Positions 7,169 to 64,000 of a stretch of 64,000 nucleotides of DNA are shown piece after piece. The notes under the pieces were generated by a model that did no database searches, had not been told where the DNA came from, and saw nothing but the letters and a program-made list of their open reading frames with translations. Made by a program: the position numbers and the translations under genes. Every line of letters begins with the position of its first letter. Within the stretch, counting starts at the first letter, position 1. The DNA is taken from assembly GCA_965204745.1 (NCBI GenBank), contig OZ242010.1:2592001-2656000 (forward strand), in the 5' to 3' direction. The stretch comes from Candidatus Latescibacterota bacterium. GTDB lineage: Bacteria; Latescibacterota; UBA2968.

Positions 7169-8881
7169 ATGTTAGATACGTTTTCAAGCGACATAACCGC
7201 CCATGCGAATAAGTTGCGCTGCGCCGCGGTCTTTGCGTTTATGGATCTCGACTATATCCAAACAGTGGTCAAACGCGCGGTTCTTTCACACAAGAAGGCG
7301 GCGAAAGAAGCGCGAGAGATGTTCGAGTCCGCAGTGAACAAACCTGGGTTGGTGAAAGTGTCCCGGTTTCCCAATCAGCCCTCAAAGGCGCCGCCGCCCT
7401 TTCTCGTAGAGCCGGTTTTGAAAGCCGTGATGCGGTCGGACAAGTTGGCGGGCGCGATTCTGAAAATCTGGGCAGAGTCCCACGAGGCACTCAACGAAGT
7501 GGTCGTGAAGCATCTGGGCAATTTGGCCATGCCGGCCGAGTATCCGGATTTTTCAGAGTTTCGATTTCGAAGTGCGTGGTTTAGCGATGCGTGGACGCGC
7601 GAGCGGGATAGTATTCTCGAGCAACACAGCGAGTTTAACAAAGACGATGTGGCCCTGATGCTGTGCTATGTGTCGGGCAAAATCCCCGGGCCTCGGGAAA
7701 GCGCGAAAAACGACGCGCTGTCTCGGTGTCTCAAATACATGCGGGCACTGCCGGCCAATGCGCCGGAATGGGAACGGGGGATTTCGGATTTTGTTGCAGA
7801 ACTCGAAGCCATCCGGAAGGTGAAATCAACGCAGCGCAGTCAAGCATCTGGTATTGACGTTGCGATTGGCGAGATCAAGGATGTGTTTTCGGGAACCTTG
7901 ACCTTTTTTCAGCGGGATGCCACGTCTTGGTCCGTGGCGCATCTGGATCCGGACGTGGACTTGGCTGACGCGCTGAAAGAGATAGAGAATTTGCAGTCGT
8001 TGCTGACCGAGTATCAACCCATTGCCGATATGGCTGCGATTTTGACCGAAGAGCGGGTGAGACGGCAGAAGCGGGTGGGGTTGGAGAATCGCATTTTGCC
8101 GGTTATGGATCGCATAGACGAACTGATGTGCGGGGATCCCGAGTCCGGGGAGGCCCTGCTGGCAGAATTGCGAGAGAGAAAAGAACAACCGGCAGCGGAT
8201 GAGAAGCGCGCTGATCAGCCGGATGACGACCCAGTTCCTGAACAGCCGGAGGAGAGCCGCAGGTTTTCGGATGAGGATTACGAGTCGTTGCAATCGGAAA
8301 ACCAACACCTCGGTCGCGAGGTCAAGTCGTTGCACGACAAGTTGCGCGAGGTTCAAAATGAGATGGAGAGTTGGCGCGTGGCCTATATTGAGGCGGCGAG
8401 CAAGGCGCCGGCAAGTGCAGACGAAGAAGAAACCCTGCCCATTGAGAACGTGCATGACGCTGTCGAACTCGCCAAAGAAAAGTACGGAGACGCGCTTTTG
8501 TTCCAACTCAATGCGAAGTCGCGGGTCGAAGACAATCCGTTCAGGCATCCCAAAGCCGTGTGGGACGCGCTGACCTGGCTGGCGACCACGTATTACGAGT
8601 ACCGCAAGGGCGAGCGCGAGTTGCCGAACATCGACCAGTCCGTGCGCGAAGCCTGTAGGTGGTGGTACAGAGGCCACCAGAGCAATATGACGATGAACAA
8701 GTACAAAGACTGGTACACCACCAAAGTCAATGGGCAGATTTGCTGGCTGCATACGCACATCGGCACGGGGCGCAACAAAAATGCGCGCTTCACCATTCGG
8801 ATCGGCTTTGACTGGGACAAGGACAGCGACCGCGTGATCGTGGGCTTCATCGGTCAACACCAACAGACGGATGCGACATGA
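7169..8881 (+). CDS. Hypothetical helical/coiled-coil protein with a possible C-terminal RelE-like fold
   Basis: Long ORF with AAGGAG RBS; C-terminal HIGTG...RIGFDWD...VIVGFIGQH pattern. Confidence 0.7.
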   Translation: MLDTFSSDITAHANKLRCAAVFAFMDLDYIQTVVKRAVLSHKKAAKEAREMFESAVNKPGLVKVSRFPNQPSKAPPPFLVEPVLKAVMRSDKLAGAILKIWAESHEALNEVVVKHLGNLAMPAEYPDFSEFRFRSAWFSDAWTRERDSILEQHSEFNKDDVALMLCYVSGKIPGPRESAKNDALSRCLKYMRALPANAPEWERGISDFVAELEAIRKVKSTQRSQASGIDVAIGEIKDVFSGTLTFFQRDATSWSVAHLDPDVDLADALKEIENLQSLLTEYQPIADMAAILTEERVRRQKRVGLENRILPVMDRIDELMCGDPESGEALLAELRERKEQPAADEKRADQPDDDPVPEQPEESRRFSDEDYESLQSENQHLGREVKSLHDKLREVQNEMESWRVAYIEAASKAPASADEEETLPIENVHDAVELAKEKYGDALLFQLNAKSRVEDNPFRHPKAVWDALTWLATTYYEYRKGERELPNIDQSVREACRWWYRGHQSNMTMNKYKDWYTTKVNGQICWLHTHIGTGRNKNARFTIRIGFDWDKDSDRVIVGFIGQHQQTDAT

Positions 8882-8883
8882 GG

Positions 8884-8961
8884 AAGGAAGAGGGGAGAGG
8901 CAAGAGGCAAGACGTAAGAGGCAAGAGGCAAGAGGCAAGAGGTAAGAGGCAAGAGGTAAGA
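8884..8961 (+). repeat. Heptamer tandem array (AAGAGGC/AAGAGGT)n, interrupted by IS110
   Basis: About 10 degenerate units; continues as AAGAGGGG after 10251. Confidence 0.9.
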
Positions 8962-8976
8962 TACTCTCTTAAAAGG

Positions 8977-9984
8977 TCAAGGGGTTTTCGGGGTGATTCG
9001 ATAGAATTTTTCGCCCTCAAAATCTTGGTCATGGCGCAACATGCCCCAGATCGAATGGAGCAACTTTCGCATCACCGCAACGATAGCCTGCAAAGGTTTC
9101 TTGCCGCGGGCGATGAGTTGGTCATAGAAGGCTTTGACATGGCCTTCGTGTCTGATGGCCACCCAGGCAGGCATATAGAGGGCATGGCGGAGGTACTTAT
9201 TCCCGGTTTTCGAGATGCGTCTTTGTGGATTGGCGGTTCCGGATTGTTTGGGTTTGGGATCCAGGCCTGCATGTGCGACCCACTGGGGCGGTTGCATCTC
9301 CTCTGGCAAAAGGGTCAACTCGGCCAAGAGCCGCAAGGCACTCGTTTGCGCGATGCCAGGCGTCGAGCAGAGGCGTTGGTAGGCACGCTTGAGGGGCTCA
9401 TCGTGCAAAACGAGATCGAGGGCTTGGCTTTCCAAGTATGCAATCCGGCGTTTGAAGTGTCGAATATTCACCTGAATATCGCGTGCGATGAGACGTGTGC
9501 TGCGGATGTGGTAGCTCTGCGCGTGGTTGCGGCTCTGTTCGCGGATGATCTCCTGCTTGAGTTGGTCAATGCGTCTGGTGAGGGCTTGCAGTTGAAGCCG
9601 TTGCTCGCTCGGCGCTTGCCAAGGCACAAAAGGCATGCGCTCGGCATAGTCGAGGATCAACAACGCATCCTTCGCATCCGTCTTCGCCCGTTGCATGCAG
9701 GCTTGGGCGTACTTGCTCATCGCTTTGGGATTGACGACCATGACCTTTGTGTGGCGATGCCGATGCAAGGCCAAGGCCACCCCCAAACTGTAAAGCCCGG
9801 TCGCTTCGAGGCACACAGAGACCATGTGCCCGCCCTTCGTGAGCCACTTCAGCAACCGCTTATGCGCTTGGGGATCATTGGCAAAGGTCGCTTGCATGAC
9901 AGCTTGTCCGGGTCTGGACAGGGCAACGGACAACGTGCGGGCACTGACATCAATGCCGGCAAAAGCGGGGTGAGATTTCGACAT
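8977..9984 (-). CDS. IS110-family DEDD recombinase/transposase
   Basis: GIDVS, CLEATG and KTDAKDA acidic residues; PGIA and AGLDP...QSG (catalytic Ser) in the C-terminal domain; GGAGG RBS. Confidence 0.95.
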   Translation of the reverse strand: MSKSHPAFAGIDVSARTLSVALSRPGQAVMQATFANDPQAHKRLLKWLTKGGHMVSVCLEATGLYSLGVALALHRHRHTKVMVVNPKAMSKYAQACMQRAKTDAKDALLILDYAERMPFVPWQAPSEQRLQLQALTRRIDQLKQEIIREQSRNHAQSYHIRSTRLIARDIQVNIRHFKRRIAYLESQALDLVLHDEPLKRAYQRLCSTPGIAQTSALRLLAELTLLPEEMQPPQWVAHAGLDPKPKQSGTANPQRRISKTGNKYLRHALYMPAWVAIRHEGHVKAFYDQLIARGKKPLQAIVAVMRKLLHSIWGMLRHDQDFEGEKFYRITPKTP

Positions 9985-10024
9985 GGGGGCCTCCTGTGAT
10001 GAGGGGGTTGTAAGGGATCTGGTG

Positions 10025-10237
10025 CGCGCTCGGGGTCGCGTCCCGACCATTGACGCCAAGTCTACCGGTCTTGTATATGCAGCCTCAAGGGGCTTAGATA
10101 CTCTTCGGCATAGACCCGGCGGTCGGGGGGCCTATCTTACCTACAAGGTCATCGCCTTCAAGAGGGGCCGGCCTTCCCCGAGCCGGGCATCAAGATGGCT
10201 TATCTCGATACGAGGGCGCAACTCCTAATTAACCCTT
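10025..10237 (-). ncRNA. Predicted IS110 bridge RNA
   Basis: Two internal loops with guides matching target (CCCCTCTT, AGGTAAGA) and donor (AGAGTATCT, ATACAAGA); RNA ends are estimated. Confidence 0.8.
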
Positions 10238-10256
10238 ACTTCCAAGATACAAGAGG

Positions 10257-10339
10257 GGTGGCCTTCTCACGTCTTGCCTCTACCTTCTTACCTTTTTAAG
10301 GTGGCCTTCTCACGTCTTGCCTCTACCTTCTCACCTTTT
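10257..10339 (+). repeat. 43-bp direct duplication of pyrimidine-rich heptamer-like sequence
   Basis: GGTGGCCTTCTCACGTCTTGCCTCTACCTTCT(T/C)ACCTTTTT twice; partly complementary to the 8884-8961 array. Confidence 0.75.
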
Positions 10340-10345
10340 TGGGTG

Positions 10346-10370
10346 TAGGGGCGTTGCCCCGTGCCTGCCC
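10346..10370 (+). repeat. GTAG-type REP
   Basis: GTAGGGGCGTTGCCCCGTGCCTGCCC; related copies at ~46090 and ~55642. Confidence 0.65.
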
Positions 10371-10700
10371 AAAGGCATGGGCTGACCTGCTGTTGGTCAG
10401 TATGCTTGTTGTTCAGCATCCAAGGAGTAAAAGCGAGAGGCGAGAGGGCCATTACGGTCTTCTCGCCTTTTGCGTACTGAATAAAGTCATTTCAGTTTTT
10501 GAAGGGCTTTTGCACAGGTTTATTTTTTTTGGTCGCGTTGCGTGGGTTGCAGAGTTCAATACCCACTGGGGTAAATGTCGCCATCCATGCTTGCTCGATC
10601 TCAGGATCTTTTGTGGGCCACTTTTCGATAAAAATGACCCACAACGAATTTTGTGGGACATAAATGTCCAACAAAACCCGCGCTGATGTGTAAATCAGCA

Positions 10701-63496: not shown

Positions 63497-64000
63497 AAGA
63501 TACTCTCTTAAAAGGTCAAGGGGTTTTCGGGGTGATTCGATAGAATTTTTCGCCCTCAAAATCTTGGTCATGGCGCAACATGCCCCAGATCGAATGGAGC
63601 AACTTTCGCATCACCGCAACGATAGCCTGCAAAGGTTTCTTGCCGCGGGCGATGAGTTGGTCATAGAAGGCTTTGACATGGCCTTCGTGTCTGATGGCCA
63701 CCCAGGCAGGCATATAGAGGGCATGGCGGAGGTACTTATTCCCGGTTTTCGAGATGCGTCTTTGTGGATTGGCGGTTCCGGATTGTTTGGGTTTGGGATC
63801 CAGGCCTGCATGTGCGACCCACTGGGGCGGTTGCATCTCCTCTGGCAAAAGGGTCAACTCGGCCAAGAGCCGCAAGGCACTCGTTTGCGCGATGCCAGGC
63901 GTCGAGCAGAGGCGTTGGTAGGCACGCTTGAGGGGCTCATCGTGCAAAACGAGATCGAGGGCTTGGCTTTCCAAGTATGCAATCCGGCGTTTGAAGTGTC
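63497..64000 (-). mobile_element. Second IS110 copy, truncated by the window end; transposase 3' part ends at 63516
   Basis: Appears identical to 8958-9461; flanked by a (GTAAGAG)n array. Confidence 0.93.

What the first reader, a model, noticed from the sequence alone, without database searches (positions are those of the whole stretch)
8958..10254. IS110 bridge-RNA recombinase programmed to target the host's heptamer tandem repeats
Seen on the minus strand: the junctions are CCCC-TCTT-[GTATCTTGG...AAGAGAGTA]-TCTT-ACCT. The empty target is therefore CCCCTCTTACCT, i.e. the (CCTCTTA/G)n heptamer array, and the circular donor is AGAGTA-TCTT-GTAT. The non-coding end holds all four guides in two loops. 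Target loop: left guide CCCCTCTT (10160-10167), AAGG..CCTT hairpin, right guide AGGTAAGA (10135-10142). Donor loop: left guide AGAGTATCT (10096-10104), AGCC..GGCT hairpin, right guide ATACAAGA (10069-10076), closed by the stem GCCGGGTCTA/TAGACTTGGC. The second copy (63497) also sits in AGGTAAGA. Established knowledge: IS110/IS621 bridge RNAs have this bispecific layout. Inference: this is an ortholog with a TCTT core whose safe harbour is a simple tandem repeat rather than a REP, and it may be reprogrammable.
Basis: partly seen in the sequence, partly recalled or inferred. Interest (0 to 1): 0.9.

Follow-up and report, generated by a model that had tools for sequence, protein, structure and literature searches.

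The report
Bridge-RNA insertion sequence targeting heptamer repeats
This is a small jumping gene of the IS110 family whose own guide RNA matches both its ends and the seven-base repeat arrays it sits in; it is a clear new example of an already known RNA-guided mechanism.

Summary
Window 8961-10251 (minus strand) is a 1.29-kb IS110-group element. It has a DEDD/Ser recombinase gene (PDB sequence hits: ISCro4 7e-40, IS621 5e-36) and a 267-nt left end. That left end carries four guide segments in two internal loops, in the order and strand sense described for IS621 bridge RNA.

- **Chance:** none of 20,000 shuffles of the left end held even two of the four segments.
- **Copies:** the genome holds 52 full-length copies. 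Flanks match the guides, and subfamilies with changed guides sit in correspondingly changed sites. So do relatives in two congeneric genomes.
- **Correction:** the crossover core is CT, as in IS621, not TCTT. The extra T on each side is a coincidence of target and donor.
- **Occupancy:** the perfect site CCCCT-CT-TACCT is 80% occupied (20 of 25), a one-wobble site 21%, a two-mismatch site 5%.

No RNA, circle or activity data exist. I rate it a new member of a known kind, of moderate interest.

One thing is unexplained. REP-like units that begin with the element's own core plus right-donor bases are abundant only in the three of 21 same-genus genomes that carry the element. No RAYT-type (REP-associated Y1) transposase was found in this genome.

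The parts
8961..10251 (-). Element body (1291 bp; 1293 bp with one CT core). Left end (LE) 9985-10251 is 267 nt non-coding; right end (RE) 8961-8976 is 16 nt.
   Evidence: Junctions read. 52 full-length copies share these ends. LE much longer than RE is the IS110-group pattern described in PMC11208160 section 12.
10252..10253 (-). CT core at the left junction, preceded by left target CCCCT (10254-10258) and followed by right donor TGTAT (10247-10251).
8959..8960 (-). CT core at the right junction, preceded by left donor AGAGTAT (8961-8967) and followed by right target TACCT (8954-8958).
8977..9984 (-). Recombinase gene, 335 aa from the ATG at 9984. AGGAGG at 9990-9995 lies 5 nt upstream. Counted from Met: D12, E60, D103, D106 and S248-G249.
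   Evidence: Pfam PF01548 1.2e-24 and PF02371 4.8e-20. Aligned to IS621 chain 8wt6_A with GIDxx, xEATG, KTDxxDA and SG conserved. Residue positions. IS621 catalytic residues D11/E60/D102/D105/S241 are from PMC11208158.
10187..10211 (-). 5' stem-loop of the predicted bridge RNA (10 pairs, 5-nt loop).
   Evidence: MFE and centroid folds. Not in the RNAalifold consensus, because the OZ251458 relatives differ here.
10124..10180 (-). Target-binding stem-loop. Closing helices 10170-10180 with 10124-10132. LTG (left target guide) CCCCTCTT at 10160-10167. Hairpin 10145-10158. RTG (right target guide) AGGTAAGA at 10135-10142.
   Evidence: helices 1 and 2: 99-100% of cells paired, one compensatory pair each. 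Guide-to-flank match.
10055..10120 (-). Donor-binding stem-loop. Closing helix 10106-10120 with 10055-10067. LDG (left donor guide) AGAGTATCT at 10096-10104. Hairpin 10081-10094. RDG (right donor guide) ATACAAGA at 10069-10076.
   Evidence: helix 3: 13 pairs, 3 with compensatory change. LDG is invariant in all 20 aligned sequences except own_95.8 and Gemm_L056.
10042..10048 (-). 3' half of a basal stem that pairs with 10181-10187 and encloses both guide stem-loops.
   Evidence: RNAalifold consensus on A1 and MFE fold.
8975..8980 (-). TTGACC, a -35-like hexamer in the right end, overlapping the stop codon. It is paired with a -10 only when the ends are joined.
   Evidence: Script scan of the joined ends: TTGACC, 18-nt spacer, TATCTT, 9 of 12 matches. 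No site of 8 of 12 or better at the integrated left junction. The tool scan of the integrated region found none in the LE. TTGACC or TTGAAC is conserved in the relatives.
10244..10249 (-). TATCTT, the -10-like hexamer at the start of the left end.
8886..8958 (-). CCTCTTR/CCTCTCC heptamer array forming the right flank, i.e. the remaining half of the target array.
   Evidence: Genome-wide TRF found 533 period-7 arrays.
63497..64000 (-). Right part of a second, 100% identical copy, cut by the window end. CT core at 63498-63499, right flank TACCTCTTACC.

Best explanation
This is an active or recently active IS110-group insertion sequence that uses a bridge RNA encoded in its left end.

**Shown from sequence.**
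- The element encodes a DEDD/Ser recombinase.
- Its left end has two internal loops. [quoted passage not shown] - The flanks of 52 copies fit these guides, and guide changes go with flank changes.

**Inferred by analogy with IS621.**
- The element leaves as a circle whose RE-LE junction (AGAGTAT-CT-TGTAT) is the donor.
- That junction also assembles a sigma-70-like promoter that drives the RNA and the recombinase.
- The RNA bridges donor and target inside a recombinase tetramer.
- Strands are exchanged at the CT core, which inserts the element without any duplication beyond the core.

**Target.** The preferred site, CCCCT-CT-T(A/G)CCT, occurs many times in the host's CCTCTYR heptamer arrays. 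One guide set therefore has dozens of intergenic landing sites, and neighbouring units can each take a copy.
For: **Protein.** Pfam DEDD_Tnp_IS110 and Transposase_20. The only PDB sequence hits are ISCro4 (7.3e-40) and IS621 (5.1e-36), with D/E/D/D and S-G conserved.

**Guides.** All four are present in the IS621 order and strand sense. 0 of 20,000 shuffles held two or more.

**Copies.** 52 full-length copies: 37 at 99% or more, 8 at 96.1%, 2 at about 95%, 5 at 88-89%. 51 of 52 give an uninterrupted full-length protein match.

**Flanks of the 45 copies with the main guides.**
- CCCCT-CT-TACCT: 20
- CCCCT-CT-TGCCT (U-G wobble): 17
- TACCT-CT-TACCT: 4
- CCCCT-CT-CCCGT: 2
- CCCCT-CT-TACTT: 1
- CCCCT-CT-TGCCC: 1

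**Covariation inside the genome.**
- Copy 1297033 has LTG TCCCT-CT-C and rc(RTG) T-CT-CACCT, and sits in TCCCT-CT-CACCT (12 of 12).
- Four 88-89% copies have LTG CGCCT and rc(RTG) TACTT. Their sites are CGCCT/TACTT (2 copies), CACCT/TACTT (1) and CGCCT/TACCT (1).
- The fifth 88-89% copy (217969) has LTG TGCCT and rc(RTG) TACTT, and sits in TACCT/TACTT.

**Covariation across genomes.**
- 18 copies in OZ251458 have LTG CTCGCCT-CT and rc(RTG) T-CT-CCCT. Left flanks are CGCCT (5), CACCT (7), TGCCT (4), TACCT (2). The right flank starts CCC in 16 of 18.
- 7 copies in OY282377 have LTG ATCC(T/C)C-CT and rc(RTG) T-CT-TTTCT or T-CT-TTCCT. The right flank is TTTCT in 4 of the 5 whose right end I located. 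The left five bases match 26 of 35 positions.

**CT core.** Right junctions read TCTC in 4 of the 52 own copies while left junctions read TCTT. OZ251458 junctions share only T-CT, and OY282377 junctions share only CT-T.

**Occupancy falls with mismatch.** 20 of 25, 17 of 82, and 4 of 87.

**Structure.** 30 curated pairs, 97.8% of cells paired. 6 pairs have compensatory changes, against 0-1 when partners are slid and 0 of 500 shuffles.

**Covariance model.** A model built from these RNAs finds the left ends of other IS110 elements in the right place and strand:
- Acidisarcina plasmid: 70.7 bits, E 7e-17.
- An E. coli plasmid element whose recombinase hits IS621 at 1.9e-70: 22.1 bits, E 6e-5.

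**Promoter.** A junction-only promoter is present, with a conserved -35. This matches what PMC11208158 states for IS621.
Against: - No RNA, circle or recombination data exist for this element.
- No Rfam family matched, even at E up to 10.
- The single-sequence fold is only modestly better than shuffles (z = -2.08; 5 of 200 shuffles fold as well).
- The aligned sequences are close relatives: effective number 1.25. Structural covariation therefore rests on few independent changes, several of them from one Gemmatimonadota sequence.
- Some copies do not fit their own guides. Four sit in TACCT instead of CCCCT and two in CCCGT on the right. Copy 602779 has 3 mismatches. L031 matches only 2 of 5 left-target bases.
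- The E. coli and Salinibacter model hits are weak, and the E-values come from a short calibration.
- RNAalifold and the MFE fold pair the core-proximal parts of LTG and RTG with each other. The 'open internal loop' is therefore my curation, made by analogy.
Confidence: 0.9

Rival explanations
1. It is an IS110 element, but site choice is made by the protein, or by DNA structure of the arrays. The left-end matches would then be fossils of heptamer array or of terminal sequence captured inside the element, not guides.
For: The left end lies in a genome full of such heptamers. LTG has the same sense as the array, so a captured array unit could look like it. No RNA evidence exists. The preprint 10.64898/2026.03.19.712850 reports, in its abstract as listed, an extra structural layer of target recognition for ISPpu10.
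Against: - RTG and RDG are antisense and sit at fixed positions in conserved helices.
- The guides change together with the flanks in subfamilies.
- In OY282377 the site is not a heptamer array at all.
- All four segments occurring together was never seen in 20,000 shuffles.
Confidence: 0.04
2. The element works: a bridge-RNA element with a four-base TCTT core that must be shared by donor and target.
For: TCTT stands at both junctions in 48 of 52 own copies. All four guides of the main family cover T-CT-T.
Against: - Copy 1297033 has TCTT on the left and TCTC on the right, with guides that predict exactly that for a CT core.
- Three more copies have TCTC on the right.
- OZ251458 copies have ...CCT-CT-TGTAT on the left and AGTAT-CT-CCCG on the right. 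OY282377 copies have ...CCYC-CT-T on the left.
- LDG reads AGAGTAT-CT-A, so it does not cover the fourth base.
- IS621 has a CT core (PMC11208160).
Confidence: 0.05
3. The family is no longer mobile. The copies were spread by recombination or array dynamics, and the guide-to-flank fit is a relic.
For: No circle junction was seen and no RNA holder was listed (those attempts are described under Tried and rejected). About 20 fragments and solo ends exist in the genome.
Against: 30 copies are 100% identical over 1297 bp and 51 of 52 keep the full reading frame. Both point to recent guided spread.
Confidence: 0.08

Closest known systems
IS621 (E. coli) bridge recombinase and bridge RNA (Durrant et al. 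2024, PMC11208160; Hiraizumi et al. 2024, PMC11208158)
   Same: - DEDD + Ser recombinase of about 330 aa.
- RNA encoded in a long left end, with a 5' stem-loop followed by a target loop and a donor loop.
- The 5' sides of the loops pair with bottom strands (8-9 nt) and the 3' sides with top strands.
- A CT core is included in all four pairings.
- A promoter is assembled at the circle junction.
   Different: - Protein similarity is distant: E 5e-36 to the IS621 chain, and 33% identity to an IS621-related E. coli plasmid element.
- The right target guide gives 7-8 contiguous pairs, against 4 for wild-type IS621 as described.
- A basal stem is predicted to enclose both loops.
- The natural target is a heptamer tandem array rather than a REP. 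The IS621 wild-type target is ATCAGGCCTAC in the paper.
- 52 copies occur in one genome.
ISCro4 (PDB 9t56) and IS622, engineered bridge recombinases (bioRxiv 10.1101/2025.05.14.653916; search listing only)
   Same: ISCro4 is the best PDB sequence hit (7.3e-40, aligned over residues 8-327).
   Different: I did not read that paper beyond the listing, so no RNA comparison was made.
REP-targeting IS110 elements of Pseudomonas putida: ISPpu9 (PMC12288879) and ISPpu10 (bioRxiv 10.64898/2026.03.19.712850); abstracts in the search listing only
   Same: IS110 elements that use a multi-copy intergenic repeat as landing site.
   Different: - Their target is a palindromic REP unit and they have few copies (seven ISPpu9 copies per the abstract).
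- Here the target is a 7-bp tandem array with several overlapping sites per locus.
- That allows two copies one unit apart: G000 1121590-1124183.
IS1111-group elements (bridge/seek RNA in the right end)
   Same: Same recombinase family and the same RNA-guided logic (PMC11208160 section 12).
   Different: This element has a long left end, a 16-nt right end, and its RNA in the left end. It therefore belongs to the IS110 group, not IS1111.

Membership tests
IS110-group bridge-RNA insertion sequences | Recombinase with a RuvC-like DEDD domain plus a Tnp domain carrying the catalytic Ser | tested here: met
   PF01548 1.2e-24 and PF02371 4.8e-20. D12/E60/D103/D106 and S248-G249 align with IS621 D11/E60/D102/D105 and S241-G242.
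IS110-group bridge-RNA insertion sequences | Left non-coding end much longer than the right end, with the RNA encoded in the left end | tested here: met
   267 nt against 16 nt. This criterion comes from PMC11208160 section 12.
IS110-group bridge-RNA insertion sequences | [quoted passage not shown] | tested here: met
   Folds. 30 curated pairs, 97.8% paired, 6 compensatory pairs, 0 of 500 shuffles reach this. Caveats: the aligned sequences are close relatives, and the 5' stem-loop is not conserved in OZ251458.
IS110-group bridge-RNA insertion sequences | [quoted passage not shown] | tested here: met
   CCCCT-CT(-T), AGAGTAT-CT, rc T-CT-TACCT and rc T-CT-TGTAT. Chance excluded.
IS110-group bridge-RNA insertion sequences | Guides covary with insertion sites among relatives, while donor guides stay conserved | tested here: met
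   Own subfamilies. Two congeneric genomes with 18 and 7 copies. LDG is identical in 18 of 20 aligned sequences.
IS110-group bridge-RNA insertion sequences | Dinucleotide core (CT in IS621) as the only sequence shared by both junctions | tested here: met
   The intersection of the junctions of three genomes and of copy 1297033 is CT.
IS110-group bridge-RNA insertion sequences | Sigma-70-like promoter reconstituted at the RE-LE junction of the circle | tested here: met
   TTGACC-18 nt-TATCTT appears only when the ends are joined. The -35 is conserved with a 17-nt spacer in relatives. This is sequence-level evidence only, and the promoter consensus of this phylum is unknown to me.
IS110-group bridge-RNA insertion sequences | The RNA is homologous to the described IS621-type bridge RNA | tested here: inconclusive
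   No Rfam family matched. My covariance model hits the left end of an IS621-related E. coli plasmid element at only 22.1 bits, E 6e-5, and an Acidobacteriota element at 70.7 bits. The IS621 RNA itself was not available to me.
IS110-group bridge-RNA insertion sequences | The RNA is expressed, binds the recombinase and is required for recombination; a circular intermediate exists | not testable with these tools
   No RNA run was listed. Contigs laid on the locus showed no RE-LE joint. Neither result counts as evidence.

The most novel reading that the evidence does not exclude
The element may not only exploit the host's repeats but also be tied to their spread.

**What was seen.**
- REP-like units of about 38-50 nt begin with the element's own core plus right-donor bases: CT-TGTATCTT, then a GC-rich palindrome ending in CCCTAC.
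- They occur 59, 94 and 177 times in exactly the three of 21 congeneric genomes that carry the element, and 0-2 times in the other 18.
- This genome has no detectable Y1/RAYT (REP-associated) transposase, and its only DEDD_Tnp_IS110 matches belong to this element family.

**The reading.** These units could be right-donor half-site substrates of the bridge recombinase. They might act as non-autonomous passengers, or as alternative left ends that let it move or delete flanking DNA. The CCTCTYR arrays, abundant only in the two genomes whose guides match them, might be expanded by the same activity.

**Against it.**
- The REP core itself shows the same three-genome distribution, so shared ancestry may explain everything.
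- The left flanks of the units do not follow each genome's left target guide.
- No left-donor-like right end was found: AGAGAGTATCT occurs only 6 times outside full copies.
Probability: 0.12. Interest if true: 0.7.

Novelty: new member of a known kind. Interest (0 to 1): 0.4.

Why it matters
**What it adds.** It is an unusually well-replicated natural example of bridge-RNA targeting.
- One genome supplies 52 insertions.
- Occupancy is graded by mismatch.
- Internal subfamilies have compensating guide and site changes.
- Two sister genomes hold the same scaffold with different target loops. One of these aims at a different position of the heptamer arrays, and one at a rare non-repeat site.

**Target type.** A short tandem array can serve as landing pad. 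Unlike a single REP, an array keeps offering intact sites next to an occupied one; one pair of copies sits a single unit apart.

**For tool builders.** It is a compact ortholog with long contiguous right-guide pairing and a documented natural retargeting series.

**For microbial genomics.** It links an IS burst to the repeat landscape of an uncultured lineage. Runs holding the element include some labelled sponge metagenome.

**What it does not do.** It does not change the known mechanism.

Tried and rejected
**Searches and assays that gave nothing usable.**
- Rfam at E up to 10 over 8700-10500 gave only chance-level hits to unrelated families. Rfam on L066 gave none.
- The consensus promoter/terminator scan of the integrated locus found one promoter-like site inside the ORF, and none in the left end.
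- The look-up of sequencing runs listed no RNA holder; all rows are contigs.
- Read laying on 8700-10500 with X1, X3, X5 and X6:
  - No RE-LE (circle) joint was seen.
  - The 'skips about 1300' and 'goes back 1335' joints have short sides, or lie in heptamer repeats. I read them as other copies or other arrays, not as empty sites or circles.
  - Depth is much higher inside the element than in the flanks, but the tool warns that depth is no copy number.
  - A variant contig in X6 differs at RTG and LTG positions (10134, 10139, 10141, 10142, 10163, and an insertion at 10166). I did not follow this.

Two scripts failed or returned nothing because my regular expressions assumed wrong guide lengths. 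They were corrected. In one search my pattern did not find the right end of L032 and L035, so right flanks are given for 5 of 7 OY282377 copies.

**Ideas tested and dropped.**
- *REP-linked CTTGTATCTT units are true left junctions made by the bridge system.* Tested through their left flanks. In the own genome CCCCT is the commonest (17 of 94). In the other two genomes the 15 flanks each that I read do not follow the resident guide. Not supported.
- *The OY282377 target is a repeat of that genome.* CCYCCTTTTCT has 4 intact sites there, against 5 for the reversed control. Rejected; that target is rare.
- *The 16-copy repeat CTTGTATCTTCCTCG... is another mobile element.* It lies beside a 1164-aa ORF family with internal repeats. 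Left open.

**Literature.**
- No paper holds both 'IS110' and 'heptanucleotide'.
- The search for 'IS110 family', 'tandem repeats', 'insertion site' and 'bridge RNA' returned papers in which tandem repeats mean cargo or locus duplication. I read passages of 10.1101/2025.10.25.684509 and 10.64898/2026.08.14.744561.
- Supplementary tables of Durrant et al. list thousands of orthologues and may already include this family. Supplements were closed, so I cannot say it is absent from them.
Full report
**What is there.**
- Read on the minus strand, the stretch is bounded by ...GGCCACCCC-TCTT-GTATCTTGG on the left and ...AAGAGAGTA-TCTT-ACCTCTTGCC on the right.
- Between these lie a 267-nt non-coding left end, one ORF, and a 16-nt right end.
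- The ORF runs 8977-9984 from the ATG. AGGAGG sits five bases upstream.
- The ORF carries Pfam DEDD_Tnp_IS110 (1.2e-24) and Transposase_20 (4.8e-20).
- Its only sequence relatives among solved structures are the ISCro4 (7.3e-40) and IS621 (5.1e-36) transposases.
- The IS621 catalytic residues D11, E60, D102, D105 and S241-G242 (PMC11208158, passages read) align with D12, E60, D103, D106 and S248-G249 here.
- My protein queries started one codon upstream of the ATG, so tool numbering is shifted by one.

**The four guide segments.**
  - CCCCTCTT at 10160-10167
  - AGGTAAGA at 10135-10142
  - AGAGTATCT at 10096-10104
  - ATACAAGA at 10069-10076
- I derived the four words from the junctions alone and asked how often they occur in shuffles of the left end. 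156 of 20,000 shuffles held one; none held two or more.
- Order and strand sense follow the rule given for IS621 (PMC11208160 sections 6 and 7). [quoted passage not shown] The 3' side is antisense to the top strand.

**Copies.**
- The window lies in a 5.48-Mb single-contig genome.
- blastn finds 52 full-length copies: 37 at 99% or more (30 of them identical over 1297 bp), 8 at 96.1%, 2 at about 95%, and 5 at 88-89%. There are also some 20 fragments.
- 51 of the 52 give an uninterrupted full-length protein match. The exception has a one-base insertion.
- All 57 DEDD_Tnp_IS110 matches in the genome belong to this family.

**Flanks.** Reconstructed empty sites of the 45 copies that carry the main guides:

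| Site | Copies |
|---|---|
| CCCCT-CT-TACCT | 20 |
| CCCCT-CT-TGCCT | 17 |
| TACCT-CT-TACCT | 4 |
| CCCCT-CT-CCCGT | 2 |
| CCCCT-CT-TACTT | 1 |
| CCCCT-CT-TGCCC | 1 |

The A/G position faces a U of the right target guide, so G would give a U-G wobble.

Intact copies of the first three words left in the genome number 5, 65 and 83. Occupancy is therefore 20 of 25, 17 of 82 and 4 of 87. A first-order Markov expectation for the first two words is below 0.3 per strand. Insertion frequency thus follows guide match, and the perfect site is nearly exhausted.

**The core is CT.**
- Copy 1297033 (95.8%) has LTG TCCCT-CT-C and rc(RTG) T-CT-CACCT. Its left junction reads TCCC-TCTT-GTAT and its right junction AGTA-TCTC-ACCT.
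- That outcome is what exchange at CT predicts for target TCCCT-CT-CACCT and donor AGAGTAT-CT-TGTAT. A four-base core would not give different fourth bases at the two junctions.
- Three other copies also read TCTC on the right.
- In the relatives below, the two junctions share only T-CT or CT-T.
- The left donor guide reads AGAGTAT-CT-A, so it stops at the core.
- The apparent TCTT arises because target and donor happen to carry the same T on each side of CT.

**Covariation.**
- Inside the genome:
  - Four of the 88-89% copies have LTG CGCCT and rc(RTG) TACTT. They sit in CGCCT or CACCT on the left and TACTT (three) or TACCT (one) on the right.
  - The fifth (217969) has LTG TGCCT and rc(RTG) TACTT, and sits in TACCT/TACTT.
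  - Copy 602779 is a misfit, with 3 mismatches to its own guides.
- Outside: the only close relatives in the species-representative genome collection are in two records titled Latescibacterota MAG chromosomes, plus one 48%-identical Gemmatimonadota contig.
  - In OZ251458 (18 copies, 76-78% protein identity) the scaffold is conserved but the target loop reads CTCGCCT-CT and rc T-CT-CCCT. Left flanks are CGCCT (5), CACCT (7), TGCCT (4) and TACCT (2). The right flank begins CCC in 16 of 18.
  - In OY282377 (7 copies, 80-84%) the loop reads ATCC(T/C)C-CT and rc T-CT-TTTCT or TTCCT. The right flank is TTTCT in 4 of the 5 copies whose right end I located. The five left bases match at 26 of 35 positions, ranging from 5 of 5 down to 2 of 5.
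- The donor guides hardly change.

**RNA structure.**
- The MFE fold shows a 5' hairpin and two stem-loops enclosed by a basal stem (z = -2.08).
- On 20 aligned sequences, RNAalifold recovers the two stem-loops.
- My curated structure leaves the guide loops open. It has 30 pairs with 97.8% of cells paired and 6 pairs with compensatory change. Sliding the partners gives 0-1, and 0 of 500 shuffles reach the observed value.
- Both loop hairpins show a G-C to C-G swap in the Gemmatimonadota sequence.
- The sequences are close kin (effective number 1.25), so this is supporting evidence rather than strong evidence.
- A covariance model from the alignment finds the left ends of other IS110 elements, upstream of the ORF on the coding strand:
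  - Acidisarcina plasmid: 70.7 bits.
  - Salinibacter plasmid: 23.7 bits, target loop only.
  - An E. coli plasmid element: 22.1 bits. Its recombinase hits IS621 at 1.9e-70.
- Rfam holds no matching family.

**Promoter.**
- When right and left ends are joined through one CT, TTGACC (8975-8980) and TATCTT (10244-10249) lie 18 nt apart, matching 9 of 12 consensus positions.
- No comparable site exists at the integrated left junction.
- The -35 is conserved in both relatives, with a 17-nt spacer.
- PMC11208158 states that IS621 reconstitutes such a promoter in its circle.

**Host repeats.**
- TRF finds 533 period-7 arrays in the genome, in several sequence families.
- Among 21 genomes of the genus, counts were as follows:

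| Genome | Element matches | CCTCTYR triple-unit matches |
|---|---|---|
| Own genome | 52 | 551 |
| OZ251458 genome | 19 | 252 |
| OY282377 genome | 9 | 0 |
| 18 other genomes | 0 | 0-4 |

- The predicted OY282377 target is rare there: 4 intact sites, against 5 for the reversed control.
- Another heptamer family (ACTGAYM) is spread over 13 of the 21 genomes without regard to the element.
- So heptamer arrays are a trait of the genus. The two genomes rich in CCTCTYR arrays carry elements aimed at them and have the most copies. With two such genomes this is a pattern, not a test.
- Element orientation (32 minus, 13 plus among the 45) mirrors array orientation (363 reverse, 188 forward).
- One pair of copies sits head to tail, one heptamer unit apart.

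**Unexplained.**
- The ten bases CT-TGTATCTT (core plus left-end start) occur 217 times in the genome.
- Outside the element, most are followed by a GC-rich palindrome ending CCCTAC. This is a REP-like unit of about 38 nt.
- The pattern is abundant only in the three element-bearing genomes: 59, 94 and 177 copies, against 0-2 elsewhere. The REP core alone has the same distribution.
- No Y1/RAYT transposase was found in this 97.65%-complete genome.
- The left flanks of the units do not follow each genome's guide, and no left-donor-like end was found.
- Common descent of the three genomes may explain the co-distribution. I could not build the species tree.

**Comparison and verdict.**
- Every sequence-level feature that defines IS110-group bridge-RNA elements was tested and met.
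- Expression, RNA-protein binding, the circle and the RNA's requirement could not be tested.
- The mechanism has been in print since 2024, and bridge RNAs are predicted for most IS110 elements (PMC11208160 section 12). This is therefore a new member of a known kind.
- Its particular points are the tandem-array target, the copy number with near-saturation of the perfect site, and the natural retargeting series.
- Within the searches, I found no paper on IS110 targeting of heptamer arrays.
- The supplementary orthologue tables, which I could not open, may already list this family.

Noticed in passing
Own genome, e.g. window 18265 (+), 55679 (-); also the REP-like palindrome at window about 10330-10375 (-) next to the element: REP-like units (a GC-rich palindrome ending CCCTAC), often preceded by CTTGTATCTT, the element's core plus its first eight bases. 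CTTGTATCTT occurs 217 times in the genome. The unit with this prefix is abundant only in the three congeners that carry the element. No RAYT-type transposase was found.
   Followed up: partly
Whole own genome (G000): 533 period-7 tandem arrays in several families, by canonical unit: AACTGAC 139, ACCACTG 94, ACTACTG 70, AAGAGGC 66, plus variants. The ACTGAYM family occurs in 13 of 21 genomes of the genus.
   Followed up: partly
G000:C1:1121590-1124183: Two copies (one 100%, one 96.1%) lie head to tail on the same strand, separated by ACC, that is, one heptamer unit apart.
   Followed up: no
L066 (G000:C1:415850-419850) and 15 similar places; one at window about 21388 (+): A 16-copy repeat beginning CTTGTATCTTCCTCG..., with left flank ...GAGATGTTATTCCCC. 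It lies next to a 1164-aa ORF (L066 432-3926, minus) that belongs to a multi-copy family with internal repeats. The left-flank context resembles the insertion sites of the OY282377 copies.
   Followed up: partly
Window 10134-10166 in run X6: A variant contig from another metagenome run differs from the window at right and left target guide positions (10134, 10139, 10141, 10142, 10163, and an insertion at 10166). This suggests further natural guide variants.
   Followed up: no
Window 10259-10345 (minus strand): The left flank holds heptamer-like units in the inverse orientation (GGTAAGA/AGGTAGA/GGCAAGA...) that meet the forward array at GGCCACC. Array pairs therefore form long imperfect palindromes. 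Several other copies have GGTGGCC or GGCCACC just left of the insertion.
   Followed up: no
G038 (another genus of the order); plasmids of Salinibacter ruber and Acidisarcina polymorpha: More distant relatives of the recombinase: 54% identity in G038, 52.5% and 42.2% on the two plasmids. The Acidisarcina left end matches the covariance model at 70.7 bits.
   Followed up: partly
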